DNA from: Shigella phage Ag3
Sequence record: FJ373894
Length of the DNA: 64,000 nucleotides
Reading direction: 5' to 3' (one strand)
Shown here: positions 43,682 through 59,180 of the stretch, one piece after another
How the letters are laid out: every line of letters begins with the position of its first letter
How positions within the stretch are numbered: the first letter of the stretch is position 1
Made by a program: the position numbers and the translations under genes
Notes under the pieces: model-generated
Told to the model about the DNA's origin: nothing
Databases searched by the model: none
What the model saw: the letters and a program-made list of their open reading frames with translations, nothing else

Positions 43682-43761
43682 TGGAGGATGATGGAAGGGG
43701 TAGACATTCCCTGAGGGGATGGCGGCAGCCGTTGAAGGTTCGAATCCTTCTCCTCCAACCA
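43682..43761 (+). tRNA. tRNA-Ser-like (anticodon UGA), non-canonical
   Basis: Perfect acceptor TGGAGGA/TCCTCCA and T-arm GAAGGTTCGAATCCTTC; long variable arm; C at position 33 and poor D-stem. Confidence 0.4.
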
Positions 43762-43946
43762 AATTGAGGGGCGATAGTTTAAGGGATAGTTGTCCGGACA
43801 GCGAATCCTCATAGAGAACGGCTGGGCGGCCAAACCCAGCAGGTGAGGTGAAAATCCTCAAACCCCGCCAAACATTGTTGGACTGCCAGCAAGCTCCGGT
43901 CTACGGCAGGCGTGATGGGATCGCGGAATTCAAATACCGCCTTGGG

Positions 43947-43956
43947 AGCACCTAAA
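43947..43956 (+). promoter_or_regulatory. late-promoter-like CTAAATAAAC upstream of small ORF
   Basis: About 35 nt upstream of ATG 43989. Confidence 0.3.
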
Positions 43957-43988
43957 TAAACCAGTTGTTCAATAAACAACTGGTGAGT

Positions 43989-44189
43989 ATGATGAAAACG
44001 TTCGGTGATTTTATTGCTGAGTGGGATGGCCTCGCCACCGACAACAAAGAGATTGTCGAGTTTGTTGAAAAGCGAGGTGACAAGTGGGTTGTCCTTGACC
44101 ACACCAAGACGAAGGTTCTTGGTACACATGACACCAAAGCTGACGCTGATGCCCAATTAAGGGCGATTGAAGCGAACAAGCACGGATAA
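43989..44189 (+). CDS. small hypothetical protein (66 aa)
   Basis: ORF track 43965..44189; ATG at 43989 after GGTGAG; CTAAATAA motif upstream. Confidence 0.4.
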   Translation: MMKTFGDFIAEWDGLATDNKEIVEFVEKRGDKWVVLDHTKTKVLGTHDTKADADAQLRAIEANKHG

Positions 44190-44190
44190 A

Positions 44191-44266
44191 GACGATGTAG
44201 TTCAGTCGGTAGAACGGCGGTCTGTTAAACCGTATGTCGCAGGTTCAAGTCCTGCCATCGTCGCCA
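44191..44266 (+). tRNA. tRNA-Asn (anticodon GUU)
   Basis: Cloverleaf by hand: acceptor GACGATG/CATCGTC, loop CTGTTAA, T-arm GCAGGTTCAAGTCCTGC, encoded CCA. Confidence 0.85.
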
Positions 44267-44523
44267 GACAATGGGTGTGAACGAAAGTGAATAGGCACGA
44301 AGTACGCGACCGACAAGCTCCAAGCCTCTGTCCAATAGCCGAACGGAATCTGAAGACGACGATAGTAACGCCCACCAAATTCAGAGTGTAGAGGCTACAG
44401 TAGTGCGCACCTCACGGGTTGCTACACCGGACACTCTGATACAAATCTGCCGCTGCGTGGATTAGCTGAGGAAGGATGGCCGATGTCCTCGAGCGTGGCC
44501 CAGCACGCAGCGGTAGACCAAAT

Positions 44524-44607
44524 GTGAGTGTGGCAGAGCGGTCGAATGCAGGAGACTGTAAATCTCCCCGTAACAGCGCGGTGGTTCGAATCCATCCACT
44601 CACACCA
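44524..44607 (+). tRNA. tRNA-Tyr (anticodon GUA)
   Basis: Acceptor GTGAGTG/CACTCAC, anticodon arm GGAGACTGTAAATCTCC, long variable arm, T-arm GGTGGTTCGAATCCATC, CCA. Confidence 0.85.
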
Positions 44608-44829
44608 AACACAGTAAGCGTTGCAGCCAGCTGTGTATAAAATGGGGTGACTCCACATCGGAAACGATGCCCCAACTTCCAGAAATGGTCGGGCGCAAAG
44701 CCTGTAAAGTTCCAGGAGATCGAACCAGAAGGCACTGGTCGCCAGTTAACCAATCGGCGCTGAGAAGCGCGGGGAGTTGGGCTACGGCAGATCAAATGCT
44801 CAATCGGGTGTGAATCCCGTTCAAATTTC

Positions 44830-44913
44830 GCGGGAGCCATAGGGGTTGGACAGTAGCCGACTGATCATCGGCGACGATCACTGGACAGGTTCGAATCCTG
44901 ATCTCCCGCTCCA
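44830..44913 (+). tRNA. tRNA-like gene, possibly Ile (GAU) or pseudo-tRNA
   Basis: Acceptor GCGGGAG/CTCCCGC, anticodon stem GCCGA/TCGGC with loop CTGATCA, T-loop TTCGAAT; extra base and 12-nt variable region. Confidence 0.35.
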
Positions 44914-44917
44914 AATT

Positions 44918-45006
44918 GGAAGGTTGCCCGAGAGGTTTAAGGGACTCGACTGCTAATCGAGTGGGGCTTTTAGCCCCCGAAGGTTCGAATCCTTCACCTT
45001 CCGCCA
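44918..45006 (+). tRNA. tRNA-Ser (anticodon GCU)
   Basis: Acceptor GGAAGGT/ACCTTCC, D-stem CCC/GGG, loop CTGCTAA, variable arm GGGGC/GCCCC, T-arm GAAGGTTCGAATCCTTC, CCA. Confidence 0.85.
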
Positions 45007-46790: not shown

Positions 46791-46872
46791 ATTCAGGAAA
46801 TAATCTGAGATTCTCCTTTTCTATACTCCTGTAGATACGCTATGATAAGCCAATGTCTACAGGAGAAATAGA

Positions 46873-48129
46873 ATGAACAAATTCGCTGCACAACCCCTCG
46901 CTCCATATATTCCGTTTCACACGTTAGGGAAAGGTCCATACAAAACGATTTTTGATGTCCTCTCTCTTCATCGTGAACATATTCACTGGGAAGACTACCT
47001 CTACAAACACACTCCGTGTGAACTCGTCGCCAACCCCGAAACTAACCAGCAGGTCTGGTTCAAGCGTGAAGATTACTTCGCGCCGCTATCTTGTTATATG
47101 AATGGCAAGCAGGGCATCAACGGCAGCAAACTCCGTCAGGCCATCTGGCTCATGGTTGAGCACCTGAAGGCCGGAGGCTCCCCTGACATCATCCACGGCA
47201 CTGTCGTTGGTAGTCCGCAGTCCCCTATGGCGACGGCAGTCTCTCGGCACTTCGGCGGCAAGACAACCACTGTACTCGGCGCGACCAAACCCACCACTTG
47301 TATGAACCATGATATGGTGGAAATGAGTGCCTGGTTCGGTAGTGAGTTCAACTTCGTCGGCTCCGGCTACAACAGCACCATCCAACCTCGCTGTAAGAAG
47401 CTCATCGAGCAGGTGAATCCAAAGGCGTACTACCTGGAATATGGTATTACCCTGGACCACACAGTGCATTCCCCCGAGCGCATCGCAGGATTCCATATGC
47501 TGGGCGGCGAGCAGGTTGCTAACATCCCTGACCATATCACCGATCTGATCATCCCTGCTGGATCATGCAACTCATGCACAAGCATCCTGACCGGGCTGGC
47601 GATGCACCCTAAGCCTAATCTGAAGCGTGTTTATCTGATTGGGATTGGACCAAACCGCCTGGACTTCATTGAGAGCCGCCTGCGCATCATCGGCAAACAG
47701 GCCAATCTGCCTCACATTGTCGACTTCACCCGTCGTTATCACGACAACCCAGACTATGTCCACGGCAAGAAGGAGCTTCAGCATGCCTCTAAGAGCGTTT
47801 CGCTGGCTGTCCTCCTAAGTGGTATCAGGCAGAAGGGAGAGCCAGAGGTCGTGCTTCCTCGTTTTGAGGTACACCATTGGGATCTTCACACCACCAATTG
47901 GGTTCGTTACAATGACCTGATGGATTATCAGTGGGGTGATATTGAGTTGCACCCTCGCTATGAAGGCAAGGTCATGACCTGGATCCAGCAGAACAAGCCC
48001 GAGTTGCTCAATGAGAACACTCTGTTCTGGATTGTGGGTAGCAAGCCGTACATCGAGCCAATGAAGGCCGCATGCCCTGAGCTGGCTATCCCAGATGAAG
48101 TGAACGTCAACACCTTCACTCCTTCCTGA
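46873..48129 (+). CDS. PLP-dependent enzyme, fold type II (ACC deaminase/D-cysteine desulfhydrase-like)
   Basis: FKREDYF...NGSKLRQA resembles KRDD...GGNKLRK lysine motif; 418 aa. Confidence 0.6.
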   Translation: MNKFAAQPLAPYIPFHTLGKGPYKTIFDVLSLHREHIHWEDYLYKHTPCELVANPETNQQVWFKREDYFAPLSCYMNGKQGINGSKLRQAIWLMVEHLKAGGSPDIIHGTVVGSPQSPMATAVSRHFGGKTTTVLGATKPTTCMNHDMVEMSAWFGSEFNFVGSGYNSTIQPRCKKLIEQVNPKAYYLEYGITLDHTVHSPERIAGFHMLGGEQVANIPDHITDLIIPAGSCNSCTSILTGLAMHPKPNLKRVYLIGIGPNRLDFIESRLRIIGKQANLPHIVDFTRRYHDNPDYVHGKKELQHASKSVSLAVLLSGIRQKGEPEVVLPRFEVHHWDLHTTNWVRYNDLMDYQWGDIELHPRYEGKVMTWIQQNKPELLNENTLFWIVGSKPYIEPMKAACPELAIPDEVNVNTFTPS

Positions 48130-48135
48130 TCCCTT

Positions 48136-48149
48136 CTAAATACCCCATA
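48136..48149 (+). promoter_or_regulatory. late-promoter-like CTAAATACCCCATA (copy 1)
   Basis: Followed by GGGGTATCTATG. Confidence 0.35.
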
Positions 48150-48235
48150 CAACCCGTGTGGGGTATCTATGAAACCTTTCTTGAATATTTCCGTGATATC
48201 GTCCTGTGCAAACCCGGCCTGGCAGTGCGGGAAGC

Positions 48236-48250
48236 CTAAATACCCCATAT
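48236..48250 (+). promoter_or_regulatory. late-promoter-like CTAAATACCCCATAT (copy 2)
   Basis: 25 nt upstream of ATG 48275 with GAGGAA RBS. Confidence 0.4.
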
Positions 48251-48274
48251 GGCTAACCCACTGAGGAACCCAAC

Positions 48275-48733
48275 ATGCCAACCTCCAAATTGTTTGAATC
48301 AGAATACACCAATGACATCCCCGTATGGACTGGTGTTCAAGACGGTATCACGATTGAGCTGTTTGATCGTGAAGAGACGGGCGCGGAAGAGATCTATGCA
48401 GGCGTTGAAGGCACTGATGTTGTCCGCGCCGCCGTAGCCCTTGCCACCTTCCTGGAAGATGCGCCGATTGATGGTGTGCCGTTCGAGGCGCACGTAGATC
48501 CCGAGGATCCAACGTCTATTATCATCACGGTGAATGGAGTGCCATACACTTCGTACAGCATCGAGACGGACGAAGAGGGCAGCGGAGCGCTGTATATTGC
48601 CACTGACCTGCAGCTGGAAGACGATGAGATGGATTATCTGATTCAGAATGGGGTACTGCCACCGTTCACAGATGAAGACCTGGACACAGAACTGGCCGCC
48701 GTCGGTGACGATGACGACTTCTGGGAAGAATAA
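48275..48733 (+). CDS. highly acidic protein (152 aa)
   Basis: GAGGAA RBS; about 30 percent Asp/Glu; two CTAAATACCCCAT motifs upstream. Confidence 0.6.
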   Translation: MPTSKLFESEYTNDIPVWTGVQDGITIELFDREETGAEEIYAGVEGTDVVRAAVALATFLEDAPIDGVPFEAHVDPEDPTSIIITVNGVPYTSYSIETDEEGSGALYIATDLQLEDDEMDYLIQNGVLPPFTDEDLDTELAAVGDDDDFWEE

Positions 48734-54176: not shown

Positions 54177-54527
54177 GTGATTGAAATGAAACTCAATAAG
54201 ATTCTTCTGGTGTGCGCTCTGGCTTTCTCTACCACTGCATGCTCCACCCTTCTGGACGTTGCGTCTACTGTAGACCTTGACGCTCCGTCGTTCACCAATG
54301 AACAAGCCGTGTCTAAGATGGAAGATACCATCAAGGCTCATGCCGCTCTTGACAACACCACTCCTGGTCCATTACAGACCGTCTGCAACTATGACGATTC
54401 CATCCAGGAAGACGAAACCTACCACTGCACCACCTACGTGAAGCAGGCCTCTGTCGTACTGTATGCTGACTGCACCGAAGAGCAGTGCGTTGCCACAGGC
54501 TATGACAAAGTGGAGAAAGATCAATGA
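54177..54527 (+). CDS. putative lipoprotein (116 aa)
   Basis: Signal peptide MKLNKILLVCALAFSTTAC. Confidence 0.5.
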   Translation: MIEMKLNKILLVCALAFSTTACSTLLDVASTVDLDAPSFTNEQAVSKMEDTIKAHAALDNTTPGPLQTVCNYDDSIQEDETYHCTTYVKQASVVLYADCTEEQCVATGYDKVEKDQ

Positions 54528-55303
54528 ACAACCTGGTCTGTCTTTACGACGCAAACACGAAGGTCGGCGGCCTGTATCGCGTCCTGGTGGATGTTGATCT
54601 GACGTTGGTCGATAGCCTGTCCCCTTGGGTTCAGTGGTTCAATGAAGAGAACATCGCCGCCGCTGCTATCGCTACGGGGGAACATAAGTCATATCAGTTC
54701 CAGCCGATCACCAAAGAGTGTTATATGGCTCATGCTGGCGACCTGGCTATTCTGATGCGCGAACGTGCACATCCGGCGTGGTTGATACGCCGCGTGTACC
54801 TCGCTGGGCAATGGATGTATGCTCCTACAGGGCGTGATCCTATGGATTGGTGGCGTCGCCCCGATCTGTATGCCAAGATGAACCCGCTTCCTGGTGCTTA
54901 CGAGTTCCTGGTGAATCTGAAGAAGATTCTGCTCGAAGACTTTGACAATGTTGAATTCATCGCAGTGTCCAAGTGTGAGCCGGAACACGAGCGCAGCAAG
55001 CGCCAGTTTGTCTACGACAAGTTCCCTGGTATCTTCAACGGATTTGTCAGTACTGACGAAAAGCATCTGCTGGCAGGCGATGTCCTGATTGATGACAATC
55101 CGAAGTATGTTGAGCCGTGCGGCCTGAACAACATCTTCGTCATCTTTGTTCCTCAGGGCAATTATGAAAAACTGGATCTTTCGAATTCGGAAGATATGCT
55201 TTATATTAAACCAGTAGAAGGCCAGAACCACTTCGACTTCCTGAACCGCAATATTGTCGAAGTGGTGAATCGCCTGATTGGTCATTATCAATACGTCCGA
55301 TAG
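54524..55303 (+). CDS. HAD-superfamily 5'(3')-deoxyribonucleotidase-like phosphatase
   Basis: VLVDVDLTLVD (DxDxT) and DVLIDDNP motifs. Confidence 0.55.
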   Translation: MNNLVCLYDANTKVGGLYRVLVDVDLTLVDSLSPWVQWFNEENIAAAAIATGEHKSYQFQPITKECYMAHAGDLAILMRERAHPAWLIRRVYLAGQWMYAPTGRDPMDWWRRPDLYAKMNPLPGAYEFLVNLKKILLEDFDNVEFIAVSKCEPEHERSKRQFVYDKFPGIFNGFVSTDEKHLLAGDVLIDDNPKYVEPCGLNNIFVIFVPQGNYEKLDLSNSEDMLYIKPVEGQNHFDFLNRNIVEVVNRLIGHYQYVR

Positions 55304-55312
55304 GAGGACATC

Positions 55313-55618
55313 GTGCAAGAACAATCCAAGTTTGGGGAAACCCCAGACAAGCGTTCCGGTGATAGCGATATGGATGGCGTGATTATCCATGTCAACAACT
55401 TTATTCGCCAGCAGGAGACTCCGACTCCTATCGGCGCAGCCAAGGCTCTCCATGACGTACTGGTGGAGATCGGTCAGCGCTCTGAAGCGGATGAAATCTT
55501 CTATAACTTCGACGACCAGTATAAAGTGAAGTTTGAAGAGAATGGTCGTCCGCAGGTTGCTGTATTCTGGGCACCTTGGATGGGCGGCGTGAGCTGGCGT
55601 ATTGAGGATGCTATGTAA
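55313..55618 (+). CDS. hypothetical protein (101 aa)
   Basis: AGGAGGA RBS. Confidence 0.45.
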   Translation: MQEQSKFGETPDKRSGDSDMDGVIIHVNNFIRQQETPTPIGAAKALHDVLVEIGQRSEADEIFYNFDDQYKVKFEENGRPQVAVFWAPWMGGVSWRIEDAM

Positions 55619-56304
55619 TGCTGTCGCTCTACCTGATCACGAATCTCGTCAATCATAAATTCTATATCGGTGTCACTTCAGAACCGGATAGGCGGTTGGC
55701 TGAGCATAAGTGTGGTCAGGGGAGCATTGCATTACAACGAGCGTTCAAGAAATATGGTGAAGACCAGTTCACGTTTGAAGTTCTGTTCCGAGGGAAGGAA
55801 TCAGTTATCCTTGAGATAGAGTCTGAACTGGTCTGTCAGGAGATCCTTGACTCTGGGTGGTGCTACAATATGGTCGTCGGTGGTGGGAAGCCTCCATTGG
55901 CCACGCCTGATTCATCCGCAAAGAGTGCTGCAACCCGCAAACGTTTGATCGCTGAGGGTAAGATCAAGCCACCTCCCCGCATATCGGCTGAGTCACAAAG
56001 AAGGGGTGGTGAAACCAGAAGGAAACTGATATCCGAGGGAGTGATAAAGAAGCCATTACCTCCCTCTCCAGAAGCCCAGAGGCGAGCAGGTGAAACAAGG
56101 AAACAGTTGCATGCTCTTGGCCTGATAGACATTGGTCCTGGCCGCGATGAAACGATTTACAAATGGCAGCACAAAGATGGTCGCATTGTTGAGTTAAGAA
56201 GATGCGATATGGAACTTCAATATGGCCTCCCTTCTGGTAATATAACGAATCTCTTGAAAGGTAGGGCTAAAACATGTCTCGGTTGGAGAATAATGAATGG
56301 CTAA
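55618..56304 (+). CDS. GIY-YIG homing endonuclease (Seg/I-TevI-like)
   Basis: LYLITNLVNHKFYIGVTS...RRLAEH matches GIY-YIG; Arg-rich C-terminal repeats. Confidence 0.8.
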   Translation: MLSLYLITNLVNHKFYIGVTSEPDRRLAEHKCGQGSIALQRAFKKYGEDQFTFEVLFRGKESVILEIESELVCQEILDSGWCYNMVVGGGKPPLATPDSSAKSAATRKRLIAEGKIKPPPRISAESQRRGGETRRKLISEGVIKKPLPPSPEAQRRAGETRKQLHALGLIDIGPGRDETIYKWQHKDGRIVELRRCDMELQYGLPSGNITNLLKGRAKTCLGWRIMNG

Positions 56305-57214
56305 AATAATTGTAGTGAAGGGAACAAGTGGCGTGGGCAAGGGTACGAGAGTGGTCCAGTTCATCGAATGGCTCCGTACGAAGCTGGAGCCTACCGAACT
56401 CACCTACACCATTGGTGACAAGACGCGCCCGTTTGGCCTGAAATTCGAAGAGCTGAAGTTAATCTTCGTCGGCCAGTACACTGTGTCCAACAAATCTGGC
56501 CTGGCCTCCTGGACTTCCATGGATGCTATTCATGCTACCACAGGCTCGGGTGATATCGCTCGTGATCTGGTCAAAGGCTGGCTGGCCCAGGGTTACACTC
56601 TGGTGTGCGAGGGCGAACCTCTGATGCTGTCGGATAAATGGCGTCCTGAATGGATGTTCAAGAACTATCCGATTGAATCACTGTCACTGCTGTACTTTGC
56701 ATACCCTGACCGCTATCAGTACGATGCCCGCATCCGTGGTCGCTCTGGTAAAGAAGCAGGGGACTCCGGCTGGTCGCGCAACGAATCTTACTCCAAGGAG
56801 TTTGAGAAGTCGAAGGCCGAAATGCTGGCGCTGGGCTTCACTGTGGCTGTTGATGATTACAGCGGACAGGATATCCTGTATAAATCACCGGATGCCAACA
56901 CCCAGGAGTTCCTGACCAGGCAGCAGTCGGAGTTGGCGGTACTGCCGTTCGACGCCCCGCTTTGGGTGGTGGGTAATGCGATTTGTCATCAGATACGCTC
57001 TGAACTGCGCGATGTTGACATGCACACCAAAGACTTCTACGCCTACTGCGAAACCAATCCGATGACCCGTGAGGTCGGTGGCCGGGATCCTTTGGCGCAC
57101 AGAGTCCCTGAGAAGCCGCAGAAGGCATCCAAAACTAAAACCAAGGCGAGCGCCCAGCCAGAAGCACCGAAGGCGGCGTCGCGCTCTCTCCTTGACCTGA
57201 TGAAGAAGGGGTGA
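56297..57214 (+). CDS. P-loop kinase (candidate DNA/nucleotide kinase)
   Basis: Walker A VVKGTSGVGKGT; 305 aa; overlaps endonuclease stop. Confidence 0.6.
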   Translation: MAKIIVVKGTSGVGKGTRVVQFIEWLRTKLEPTELTYTIGDKTRPFGLKFEELKLIFVGQYTVSNKSGLASWTSMDAIHATTGSGDIARDLVKGWLAQGYTLVCEGEPLMLSDKWRPEWMFKNYPIESLSLLYFAYPDRYQYDARIRGRSGKEAGDSGWSRNESYSKEFEKSKAEMLALGFTVAVDDYSGQDILYKSPDANTQEFLTRQQSELAVLPFDAPLWVVGNAICHQIRSELRDVDMHTKDFYAYCETNPMTREVGGRDPLAHRVPEKPQKASKTKTKASAQPEAPKAASRSLLDLMKKG

Positions 57215-57791: not shown

Positions 57792-57957
57792 TTTTATCTT
57801 CATGATGCTGATGTTCGTTATCTTTACGGTTTCACTCGTCGGTGTCATGGTCACAGAAGGGGTTCCACAACGCCCCTTCCTGGTGATTTGTCCTATATCG
57901 ATCACCACTTTCTTCTATCTGGCGTTCCGTGTTGAACTGGGGACCAAACTCAAATGA
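57772..57957 (+). CDS. small membrane protein
   Basis: ORF track 57745..57957; ATG at 57772 after GGAAG. Confidence 0.35.
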   Translation: MKIRSVDFIFMMLMFVIFTVSLVGVMVTEGVPQRPFLVICPISITTFFYLAFRVELGTKLK

Positions 57958-59180
57958 CCCATCTATCTAAAATGCCGACGGGCTACGCGCCCCCGGCTGA
58001 ATGGAAGTACCCGATTGACCTGGCTGTTGATTATCGTAAGCCTGAGAATCGCATGTACCTGCTCAAGGCTTGGGTGGAGGCGCTGTCCTACACCGAAGAG
58101 CACAACCAGCAGATGCGTCTGATGGATTATGCGATCGAAGTCACTGAAGGTATCAGCCTCGAACAGAAAGTCGAGCGCAAGATCTGGATGGCATTCCTTT
58201 GGGGTTGTTGCTACAACGCCATCGGTCCATGGACGATCTACAGTGAGTTCCCTGTGCCACCACAGTCCAAAGAAGAGATGCAGCGCTTCTCTGATTGGTA
58301 CAACCTGAACTTTGATCGCATGCGCTTCGATACCGACTGTCGCTACCGCAAGTCGAAGATGATTCCATGTGTTCAGTCCTATATTGACTGGCTGGCTGGC
58401 CGTACTCAATATGACGCTTTCCGTGAGATGTTGGTGTGCATCGATAAAGCAGAACAATTCACTCAGCTGTGGGACACGGCGATGTCCTGGAAATACTTCG
58501 GTCGCCTCAGTGCCTGGAACTTCCTAGAAGCCCTGAACATGGTCTTCGGGGACGAATACACCATTGACGTCCCTGGCTTCATGCTGCGTGACCGTGATGG
58601 CAGTGAGTCCAACCGTAATGGCGCGGCGTTCTTGTCCAACCGTGATGATTGGGTGACCAAGCATGGGAAGAAAAAGATCAATGGCTGTCCTATCACTGAT
58701 GAAGAGTGTGACATCCTTGAGGCCGACCTTGAACAGGCGTTCAAGGAATGCGTGGCTGAGTTCGGGCATCTGACGTTCATCAATCGCCTGAACTTTGAAA
58801 CCTCCGGCGCATGCTGGCTGAAGAAGTTCTTCCGTGAAAAGAACACCCGTTACATTGGGTGGGATGCCGAGCGTACCTGGGATGAGATCGACTACATGGA
58901 ACGCATCTGGCCGGAGTACTCCTGTGCAGCGCTCTGGGAAGCCCGTTCACTCTGGCTACCAGATACCCTGTTATGCGAAAAGGCACCTCCAGGGCACGTT
59001 CCAGGCGTTCAGAAGTGGAAGATGCCTGTGTTCTTTGAGACTGGCGTTCCTCTGCACATCTGGCATCTGCAAAAGGGTACGCGCTGGGAGCCTGACCAGG
59101 TGTATCGAGAATTGGGTAAACCGAAGATTGATAAACCGAAGTCCAACAGCGTCAACCTCATGGCACTCTTGAAACGCTGA
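57954..59180 (+). CDS. hypothetical protein (408 aa)
   Basis: ORF track; coupled to neighbours. Confidence 0.55.
   Translation: MTHLSKMPTGYAPPAEWKYPIDLAVDYRKPENRMYLLKAWVEALSYTEEHNQQMRLMDYAIEVTEGISLEQKVERKIWMAFLWGCCYNAIGPWTIYSEFPVPPQSKEEMQRFSDWYNLNFDRMRFDTDCRYRKSKMIPCVQSYIDWLAGRTQYDAFREMLVCIDKAEQFTQLWDTAMSWKYFGRLSAWNFLEALNMVFGDEYTIDVPGFMLRDRDGSESNRNGAAFLSNRDDWVTKHGKKKINGCPITDEECDILEADLEQAFKECVAEFGHLTFINRLNFETSGACWLKKFFREKNTRYIGWDAERTWDEIDYMERIWPEYSCAALWEARSLWLPDTLLCEKAPPGHVPGVQKWKMPVFFETGVPLHIWHLQKGTRWEPDQVYRELGKPKIDKPKSNSVNLMALLKR

What the first reader, a model, noticed from the sequence alone, without database searches (positions are those of the whole stretch)
46873..48129. PLP-dependent fold-type-II enzyme in the early region, candidate DNA hypermodification enzyme
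The 418-aa protein has FKREDYF...NGSKLRQA, resembling the KRDD...GGNKLRK lysine motif of ACC deaminase/D-cysteine desulfhydrase-type enzymes. Such an enzyme is unusual in a virulent phage. In hypermodifying phages, PLP-dependent enzymes act on bases already in DNA, and this gene lies near a P-loop kinase and a nucleotidase.
Basis: inference. Interest (0 to 1): 0.65.

Follow-up and report, generated by a model that had tools for sequence, protein, structure and literature searches.

The report
Known phage DNA-thymidine hypermodification decarboxylase

Summary
The 418-aa ORF at 46873..48129 (+) is real and has a strong ribosome-binding site. The window comes from an Ackermannviridae phage; the best match is Shigella phage ChubbyThor (Agtrevirus), 98.8% nt identity.

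The protein is 92% identical over 414 aa to Salmonella phage ViI gp226. Lee et al. (NAR 2021/22, PMC8989533) purified gp226 and showed it is a PLP-dependent decarboxylase that converts O-serinyl-thymidine in DNA to 5-(2-aminoethoxy)methyl-dU (5-NeOmdU). Window K86 aligns with the published Schiff-base lysine, ViI K92.

The ACC-deaminase/D-cysteine-desulfhydrase resemblance holds:
- A family profile hits only those enzymes in PDB, with K86 on ACCD K51.
- An AlphaFold model (pLDDT 89) matches them best by Foldseek (E about 1e-11).

The partner genes are in the window and syntenic with ViI:
- 5-hmdU DNA kinase (56297..57214, 85% identical to gp243).
- Serine:DNA transferase (57954..59180, 88% identical to gp247).

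In 48 of 57 distant viral loci, a transferase homolog lies within 10 kb of the PLP gene.

Verdict: observation confirmed, interpretation supported, already known, low interest. Side note: a conserved hairpin sequesters the gene's Shine-Dalgarno sequence.

The parts
46873..48129 (+). PLP-dependent decarboxylase gene, ortholog of ViI gp226 (O-serinyl-thymidine in DNA to 5-NeOmdU). Predicted Schiff-base lysine K86. ACCD-equivalent residues S114, Y363 and E364. Phosphate-loop region at residues 226-234.
   Evidence: ORF. 92% identity to ViI gp226 with K86 = K92. Invariant residues. Alignment to ACC deaminase K51, S78, Y294 and E295. Structure model and fold search. Biochemistry of gp226.
46819..46873 (+). 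RNA hairpin whose 3' arm contains the Shine-Dalgarno AGGAG of the decarboxylase gene (perfect 10-bp core at 46826-46865). Possible translational control element; function not shown.
   Evidence: MFE -25.1 kcal/mol, z = -7.5. Unique in the window. Identical in ViI and phage PC3. Different sequence but the same SD-pairing architecture in L023-L025. Only 5th of 38 upstream regions by stability. No Rfam match.
54524..55303 (+). NT5C-like deoxyribonucleotidase (Vi01_194 homolog). A nucleotide-pool enzyme in the same gene block; a role in the modification pathway is not established.
   Evidence: Pfam PF06941, E=1.8e-8, above cutoff. Syntenic with ViI. Co-occurs only in Ackermannviridae-like loci.
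56297..57214 (+). 5-hydroxymethyl-dU DNA kinase (5-HMUDK, ortholog of ViI gp243). Phosphorylates 5-hmdU in DNA to activate it for amino-acid transfer.
   Evidence: Pfam HMUD2 PF18747, E=1.1e-159. 85% identity to ViI gp243. Kinase activity of gp243 reported in PMC8989533.
57954..59180 (+). Amino-acid:DNA transferase (clade-2 aGPT-Pplase, ortholog of ViI gp247 serine:DNA transferase). Makes O-serinyl-thymidine, the substrate of the decarboxylase.
   Evidence: Pfam ADDT PF18724, E=2.1e-60. 88% identity to ViI gp247. Function listed in Table 1 of PMC8989533.

Best explanation
The ORF encodes the Agtrevirus ortholog of Salmonella phage ViI gp226, a fold-type-II (ACC-deaminase-like) PLP enzyme that acts on polymeric phage DNA. 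The pathway below is established for ViI and inferred here by orthology. Phage DNA is replicated with 5-hydroxymethyl-dU in place of some T. A 5-hmdU DNA kinase (window 56297..57214) phosphorylates the hydroxymethyl group. A serine:DNA transferase (window 57954..59180) displaces the phosphate with the side-chain oxygen of free serine, giving O-serinyl-thymidine with a free alpha-amine. This enzyme then forms an external aldimine between that amine and PLP held on K86, removes the carboxylate as CO2, and leaves 5-(2-aminoethoxy)methyl-dU (5-NeOmdU). That modification protects the DNA from many restriction endonucleases. Shown here: orthology, fold, conserved active-site residues, synteny and family-wide linkage to the transferase. 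Inferred: the activity of this particular protein and the presence of 5-NeOmdU in this phage's DNA.
For: 92% identity over 414 aa to ViI gp226, with K86 on the published lysine K92. Purified gp226 is yellow, absorbs at 410-425 nm and converts O-SerT DNA to the 301 u nucleoside with loss of one labelled carbon. Omitting gp226 from lysate mixes accumulates a 345 u (+44) nucleoside. The kinase and transferase orthologs are 85% and 88% identical and in the same order as in ViI. The closest complete genome, ChubbyThor (98.8% nt), also has gp67, thyA-like and gp160 homologs at 88%, 77% and 88% identity. The family profile hits only ACCD and D-cysteine desulfhydrase in PDB; it aligns K86, S114 and the G230-S234 loop with ACCD K51, S78 and its phosphate loop, and places Y363/E364 on Y294/E295 in a weak secondary stretch. 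The AlphaFold model has pLDDT 89.3 and pTM 0.87, and its top Foldseek hits are 4d97, 4d8t, 1tzk and 1j0a at E=8e-12 to 6e-10. In 48 of 57 distant viral loci (<65% identity) an amino-acid:DNA transferase homolog lies within 10 kb, and in all but one within about 1.3 kb. One homolog, P0108, is fused to a 5-hmdU kinase domain. 5-NeOmdU has been measured by LC-MS in ViI, CBA120 and the Taipeivirus phiHS2.
Against: No experiment exists on this protein or on DNA of this phage or its genus within the papers I could search. The single-sequence Pfam PALP score (30.3 bits) is below the curated cutoff of 35, and NCBIfam gives nothing. The Y363/E364 alignment to ACCD Y294/E295 comes from a secondary stretch that is not significant on its own. 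Similarity to the other characterised decarboxylase, M6 gp52, is marginal: hhalign probability 41%, E=2.7e-4, and BLASTP is not significant.
Confidence: 0.93

Rival explanations
1. It is a small-molecule metabolic enzyme (threonine ammonia-lyase, ACC deaminase or D-cysteine desulfhydrase) acting on free amino acids to reshape host metabolism, as several database records name it.
For: Some records call it 'threonine ammonia lyase' or 'threonine deaminase'. Its closest solved structures are ACC deaminase and D-cysteine desulfhydrase.
Against: Identity to those enzymes is only 14-15%. No NCBIfam equivalog matches. Threonine deaminases rank far lower in the fold search, at E about 2e-7. The 92%-identical ViI protein acts on DNA-bound O-serinyl-thymidine. 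The family is genomically linked to amino-acid:DNA transferases in 48 of 57 distant loci.
Confidence: 0.02
2. It has the same enzyme family and DNA-level chemistry, but in this Agtrevirus the pathway uses a different amino-acid adduct, or stops at a different product, so the final base is not 5-NeOmdU.
For: The family is combinatorially diverse in metagenomes. The kinase allele is mosaic among close relatives: 40-49% identity in L018 and L029, against 86-97% for flanking genes. No LC-MS data for the genus Agtrevirus were found.
Against: The specificity-determining transferase is 88% identical to the serine-specific ViI gp247, and the decarboxylase is 92% identical to gp226. 5-NeOmdU is found in two different Ackermannviridae genera. 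The whole gene set is conserved in the nearest genome.
Confidence: 0.04
3. It is a degenerate or non-catalytic PLP-fold protein retained for another role.
For: The Pfam score is sub-threshold. The protein has family-specific extensions and a low-confidence insertion at residues 300-311.
Against: K86 and 36 other positions are invariant across 45 homologs down to 41% identity, including the ACCD-equivalent S114, Y363 and E364. The ORF is intact and has a strong SD. The ortholog is catalytically active.
Confidence: 0.01

Closest known systems
Salmonella phage ViI (Vi01) gp226 / Vi01_182, YP_004327553: PLP-dependent O-serinyl-thymidine decarboxylase of the 5-NeOmdU pathway
   Same: 92% identity over 414 of 418 residues. 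Same Schiff-base lysine (K86 = K92). Same position between the tRNA cluster and the DNA polymerase gene. Same downstream kinase and serine:DNA transferase. The upstream SD-sequestering hairpin is identical.
   Different: The N-terminus is six residues shorter and diverges over the first ~10 residues. The host genus and phage subfamily differ (Agtrevirus, Aglimvirinae versus Kuttervirus, Cvivirinae). This genome has a GIY-YIG endonuclease gene inserted just before the kinase, and only one of ViI's two downstream structural-protein paralogs.
Pseudomonas phage M6 gp52: PLP-dependent C-alpha-glycinyl-thymidine decarboxylase of the 5-NedU pathway
   Same: Same reaction type on a DNA-bound amino-acid adduct. 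The KRED..APL..SK(I/L)R motif aligns, putting the published M6 K36 on window K86.
   Different: Only a remote relative: hhalign probability 41%, E=2.7e-4, and BLASTP not significant. It is 278 aa rather than 418 aa. It uses a different substrate and needs a radical-SAM isomerase first.
ACC deaminase (1RQX, 1F2D, 1J0A) and D-cysteine desulfhydrase (4D8T): fold-type-II PLP enzymes
   Same: Closest solved structures by sequence profile and by fold. The PLP lysine, the Ser78 position and the phosphate loop align, and the Y-E pair of the PVYEGK motif lines up in a weak secondary stretch.
   Different: 14-15% identity and TM-scores of 0.5-0.66. About 80 extra residues (N-terminal ~45, an insertion around 277-335, and a C-terminal tail). 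The substrate is a base in DNA and the reaction is decarboxylation, not ring-opening deamination or beta-elimination.

Membership tests
ViI gp226-type DNA O-serinyl-thymidine decarboxylase (5-NeOmdU pathway) | Full-length high sequence identity to the characterised enzyme | tested here: met
   92% identity and 97% positives over 414 aa with no gaps.
ViI gp226-type DNA O-serinyl-thymidine decarboxylase (5-NeOmdU pathway) | Schiff-base lysine at the published position (ViI K92) | tested here: met
   Window K86 aligns with ViI K92. It is invariant in 45 homologs and aligns with ACCD K51 and M6 K36.
ViI gp226-type DNA O-serinyl-thymidine decarboxylase (5-NeOmdU pathway) | Genome also encodes a 5-hmdU DNA kinase and a serine:DNA transferase that make the substrate | tested here: met
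   Window 56297..57214 is PF18747 and 85% identical to gp243. Window 57954..59180 is PF18724 and 88% identical to gp247. In the nearest genome, gp67, thyA-like and gp160 homologs are also present.
ViI gp226-type DNA O-serinyl-thymidine decarboxylase (5-NeOmdU pathway) | PLP-dependent decarboxylation of O-SerT in DNA, and 5-NeOmdU in virion DNA | not testable with these tools
   Shown for ViI gp226 and for ViI, CBA120 and phiHS2 DNA, but not for this phage.
Fold-type-II PLP enzymes (tryptophan-synthase-beta-like; Pfam PALP PF00291) | Match to the PALP family model above the curated threshold | tested here: inconclusive
   E=3.4e-7 but 30.3 bits against a cutoff of 35. Precomputed PF00291 hits are listed for a minority of the listed homologs, including the eight closest.
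Fold-type-II PLP enzymes (tryptophan-synthase-beta-like; Pfam PALP PF00291) | Two-domain alpha/beta fold matching solved fold-type-II structures | tested here: met
   The model has pLDDT 89.3. All 50 Foldseek PDB hits listed are fold-type-II enzymes (my classification) at probability 1.00, with a best E of 8e-12.
Fold-type-II PLP enzymes (tryptophan-synthase-beta-like; Pfam PALP PF00291) | N-terminal lysine motif plus a Gly/Ser-rich phosphate-binding loop | tested here: met
   GSK86LRQ aligns with GGNK51(L/T)RK. IIPAGSCNSCTS (226-237) aligns with the VVCCVTGSTTAG loop of 1F2D. G230 and N233 are invariant, and S231 and S234 nearly so.
ACC deaminase / D-cysteine desulfhydrase (functional family) | Match to a curated equivalog model or close sequence identity | tested here: not met
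   No NCBIfam family matches at E<=10. Structural alignments show only 14-15% identity. It resembles these enzymes in fold but is not a member.
Threonine ammonia-lyase (name used in some records) | Closest similarity to threonine or serine dehydratases | tested here: not met
   No threonine dehydratase appears in the profile search of PDB. They rank about 40th or lower in the fold search, at E about 2e-7.

The most novel reading that the evidence does not exclude
The conserved hairpin that buries the decarboxylase gene's Shine-Dalgarno sequence could be a T4-style timing switch. Read-through mRNA from the upstream gene would be translationally silent. Transcripts starting from a weak sigma-70-like promoter would lack the 5' arm and be translated. 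In all three sequence versions, that promoter's -10 hexamer (TATGAT or TACAAT) sits in the hairpin loop. This would couple the last hypermodification step to a particular phase of infection. A separate open point: no structure exists for any DNA-acting fold-type-II PLP decarboxylase, so how the family-specific segments (N-terminal ~45 residues and the insertion around 277-335) engage DNA is unknown.
Probability: 0.12. Interest if true: 0.3.

Novelty: already known. Interest (0 to 1): 0.1.

Why it matters
It matters little as a discovery. The enzyme, its pathway and its conservation in Ackermannviridae were published in 2018-2021 and are summarised in reviews. Its practical value lies in annotation. 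Many public records still call this gene 'hypothetical protein' or 'threonine ammonia lyase'. It can be renamed with confidence as the PLP-dependent O-serinyl-thymidine decarboxylase, and phages carrying it can be expected to have partly restriction-resistant, 5-NeOmdU-containing DNA. That affects sequencing, cloning and phage-therapy characterisation.

Tried and rejected
- Single-sequence search of PDB sequences gave only noise (HIV integrase at E about 0.5-1.5). A family profile was needed.
- NCBIfam gave no hit.
- PHROGs placed the protein in phrog_3650, 'unknown function', which was uninformative.
- BLASTP against M6 gp52 was not significant. Only the profile comparison gave a marginal alignment.
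- For the upstream hairpin, the sigma-70 and terminator scan called nothing there and Rfam had no match.
- A late-promoter explanation for the hairpin was rejected. The family's annotated late motif CTAAATACCCC lies downstream of the gene, not upstream.
- The hairpin's stability is not exceptional among upstream regions in this window: 5th of 38, mean -17.3, sd 5.5. I therefore did not promote it beyond a side observation.
- I considered and rejected ACC deaminase, D-cysteine desulfhydrase and threonine deaminase as functional assignments (see the membership tests).

Full report
**Observation.** The quoted motifs are present, FKREDYF at residues 63-69 and NGSKLRQA at 83-90. The start is credible, with AGGAG 7 nt upstream of the ATG.

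**What the sequence alone says.**
- Pfam's PALP model (PF00291, fold-type-II PLP enzymes) matches residues 45-270 at E=3.4e-7. The score of 30.3 bits is below the curated cutoff of 35.
- NCBIfam gives nothing.
- PHROGs places the protein in phrog_3650, labelled 'unknown function'.
- A single-sequence search of PDB sequences gives only noise.

**Origin of the window.**
- The gene matches 267 phage records. Nearly all are Ackermannviridae infecting Salmonella, Klebsiella, Escherichia, Dickeya, Serratia and Shigella.
- The best match is Shigella phage ChubbyThor (Agtrevirus) at 98.8% nt identity.
- Records name the gene variously 'hypothetical protein', 'putative pyridoxal-phosphate dependent enzyme' or 'putative threonine ammonia lyase'.

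**Identification.** Ackermannviridae are known for thymidine hypermodification.
- Lee et al. (PMC8989533) list Salmonella phage ViI gp226 (YP_004327553) as the PLP-dependent decarboxylase of the 5-NeOmdU pathway.
- They purified gp226. It was yellow and absorbed at 410-425 nm.
- It converted O-serinyl-thymidine in DNA to the 301 u nucleoside, with loss of one labelled carbon.
- Leaving gp226 out of lysate mixtures accumulated a 345 u (+44) intermediate.
- They predicted K92 as the Schiff-base lysine, using PDB 1J0A as the template.
- In the ViI record, YP_004327553 is Vi01_182 (orf00226).
- The window protein is 92% identical (97% positives) to it over 414 residues with no gaps, and window K86 aligns with ViI K92.

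**Pathway partners and synteny.**
- Window 56297..57214 is a 5-hmdU DNA kinase (Pfam HMUD2, E=1e-159). It is 85% identical to ViI gp243.
- Window 57954..59180 is an amino-acid:DNA transferase (Pfam ADDT, E=2e-60). It is 88% identical to the serine:DNA transferase ViI gp247.
- The gene order matches ViI: PLP gene, small genes, family-B DNA polymerase, NT5C-like nucleotidase, kinase, transferase.
- The remaining pathway genes lie outside the window. They are present in the nearest complete genome, ChubbyThor: gp67 kinase homolog 88%, thyA-like dUMP hydroxymethylase 77%, and gp160 (aGPT-Pplase clade 1) 88%.

**Testing the fold-type-II / ACC-deaminase resemblance.**
- A protein search found 486 relatives at E<=1e-3, down to about 40% identity. 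One of them (P0108) is fused to a 5-hmdU kinase domain.
- In a 45-sequence alignment, K86 and 36 other positions are invariant.
- A profile from that alignment hits only ACC deaminases (1RQX, 1F2D, 1J0C/E) and D-cysteine desulfhydrase (4D8T) in PDB.
- That profile aligns GSK86LRQ with GGNK51(L/T)RK, S114 with ACCD Ser78, and the 226-237 loop with the ACCD phosphate loop.
- In a weak secondary stretch, HPxY363E364GK aligns with ACCD's PVY294E295GK.
- An AlphaFold model built on the alignment is confident: pLDDT 89.3 and pTM 0.87, with low confidence only at residues 1-20 and 300-311.
- The model's best Foldseek matches in PDB are D-cysteine desulfhydrase and ACC deaminase, including 1J0A, at E=8e-12 to 6e-10. 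Cysteine synthases, SbnA and serine/threonine dehydratases follow.
Identity to these enzymes is only 14-15%, so this is a resemblance of fold and active-site layout, not membership of the ACCD or DCyD functional families.
- The other characterised decarboxylase, M6 gp52, is only marginally related (hhalign E=2.7e-4, probability 41%). The alignment nonetheless puts its published K36 on K86.

**Family-wide context.**
- A scan of IMG/VR found 244 viral stretches encoding relatives, and 79 loci were retrieved.
- Among the 57 loci below 65% identity, 48 carry a homolog of the amino-acid:DNA transferase within 10 kb. In all but one it lies within about 1.3 kb of the PLP gene.
- This independent genomic linkage supports a dedicated role in DNA hypermodification for the whole family.
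- The NT5C-like nucleotidase and family-B polymerase co-occur essentially only in Ackermannviridae-like loci.

**Mechanism (steps shown for ViI, inferred here).**
1. 5-hmdU is incorporated at replication.
2. The kinase phosphorylates it.
3. The transferase replaces the phosphate with the side-chain oxygen of serine.
4. The free alpha-amine of the DNA-bound serine exchanges onto PLP held at K86.
5. CO2 is lost, leaving the 2-aminoethoxy-methyl group.

5-NeOmdU replaces about 40% of T in ViI and CBA120, and about 16% in the Taipeivirus phiHS2. It blocks many restriction enzymes. I found no measurement for the genus Agtrevirus.

**Novelty.** The enzyme, its pathway and its conservation across the family are published, so this finding is already known. 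No solved structure of this enzyme appeared in the PDB sequence search or the searchable literature. How an ACCD-like fold reaches a base in duplex DNA therefore remains open, but that is not new information from this window.

**Side observations.**
- *SD-sequestering hairpin.* A perfect 10-bp inverted repeat (46826-46865), extended to 46819-46873, folds at -25.1 kcal/mol (z = -7.5) and pairs the gene's AGGAG.
  - It is identical in ViI and phage PC3.
  - In Dickeya phage LIMEstone1 it is replaced by a homing-endonuclease ORF.
  - In three more distant loci (L023-L025) the sequence differs but the SD is again paired in a -21 to -27 kcal/mol hairpin, with a -10-like hexamer in the loop.
  - Its stability ranks only 5th of 38 upstream regions in the window. 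Neither a promoter/terminator scan nor Rfam recognises it.
  - A T4-like translational timing switch is possible but untested.
- *Other notes.* These cover a GIY-YIG endonuclease gene inserted just before the kinase (55618..56304), the loss of one of two tandem late structural-protein paralogs downstream of the PLP gene, four tRNA genes upstream, and mosaic kinase alleles in two related contigs.

Noticed in passing
window 46819-46873 (+); also L002:30480-30541, L005:1445-1505, L023-L025 upstream of the PLP gene: A strong RNA hairpin (-25.1 kcal/mol, z = -7.5) pairs the Shine-Dalgarno AGGAG of the decarboxylase gene. It is identical in ViI and phage PC3. In L023-L025 the sequence differs but the SD-pairing architecture is the same, with a -10-like hexamer (TATGAT or TACAAT) in the loop. 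It is lost in LIMEstone1, where a homing-endonuclease ORF abuts the gene. Its stability ranks only 5th of 38 upstream regions in the window, and there is no Rfam match.
   Followed up: partly
window 55618-56304 (+): A GIY-YIG endonuclease ORF (Pfam PF01541, E=4e-8; 228 aa) sits between the Vi01_195 homolog and the 5-hmdU DNA kinase, overlapping the kinase start by 8 nt. It is absent at this position in ViI and present in only 3 of 79 related loci, so it is probably a homing endonuclease insertion.
   Followed up: partly
window 48130-48275 (+): The Ackermannviridae late-promoter motif CTAAATACCCC occurs twice (about 48136 and 48237). ViI and LIMEstone1 have two tandem paralogous structural-protein genes here, each behind one such promoter. 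This genome keeps only the second (48275..48733), plus a 23-codon remnant ORF starting at 48169, which suggests a deletion between the paralogs.
   Followed up: partly
L018:18552-19436 and L029:18530-19381: In these two related viral contigs the gp243-type 5-hmdU kinase is only 49% and 40% identical to the window's. The flanking polymerase and transferase are 86-97% identical, which suggests mosaic replacement of the kinase allele.
   Followed up: no
window 43682-45006 (+): A cluster of four tRNA genes lies upstream of the PLP gene block: Ser-TGA, Asn-GTT, Tyr-GTA and Ser-GCT. ChubbyThor's annotation lists three of them, and Ser-TGA at 43682-43761 is not annotated there.
   Followed up: partly
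protein P0108: A 620-aa metagenomic homolog fuses the PLP decarboxylase domain to a 5-hmdU DNA kinase 2 domain (PF18747). This is consistent with the gene fusions reported by Lee et al.
   Followed up: no
window 54524-55303 (+): An NT5C-like 5' deoxyribonucleotidase (PF06941, E=1.8e-8) is conserved next to the polymerase in Ackermannviridae. It could deplete a competing pyrimidine nucleotide pool, but no role in the modification pathway has been shown.
   Followed up: no
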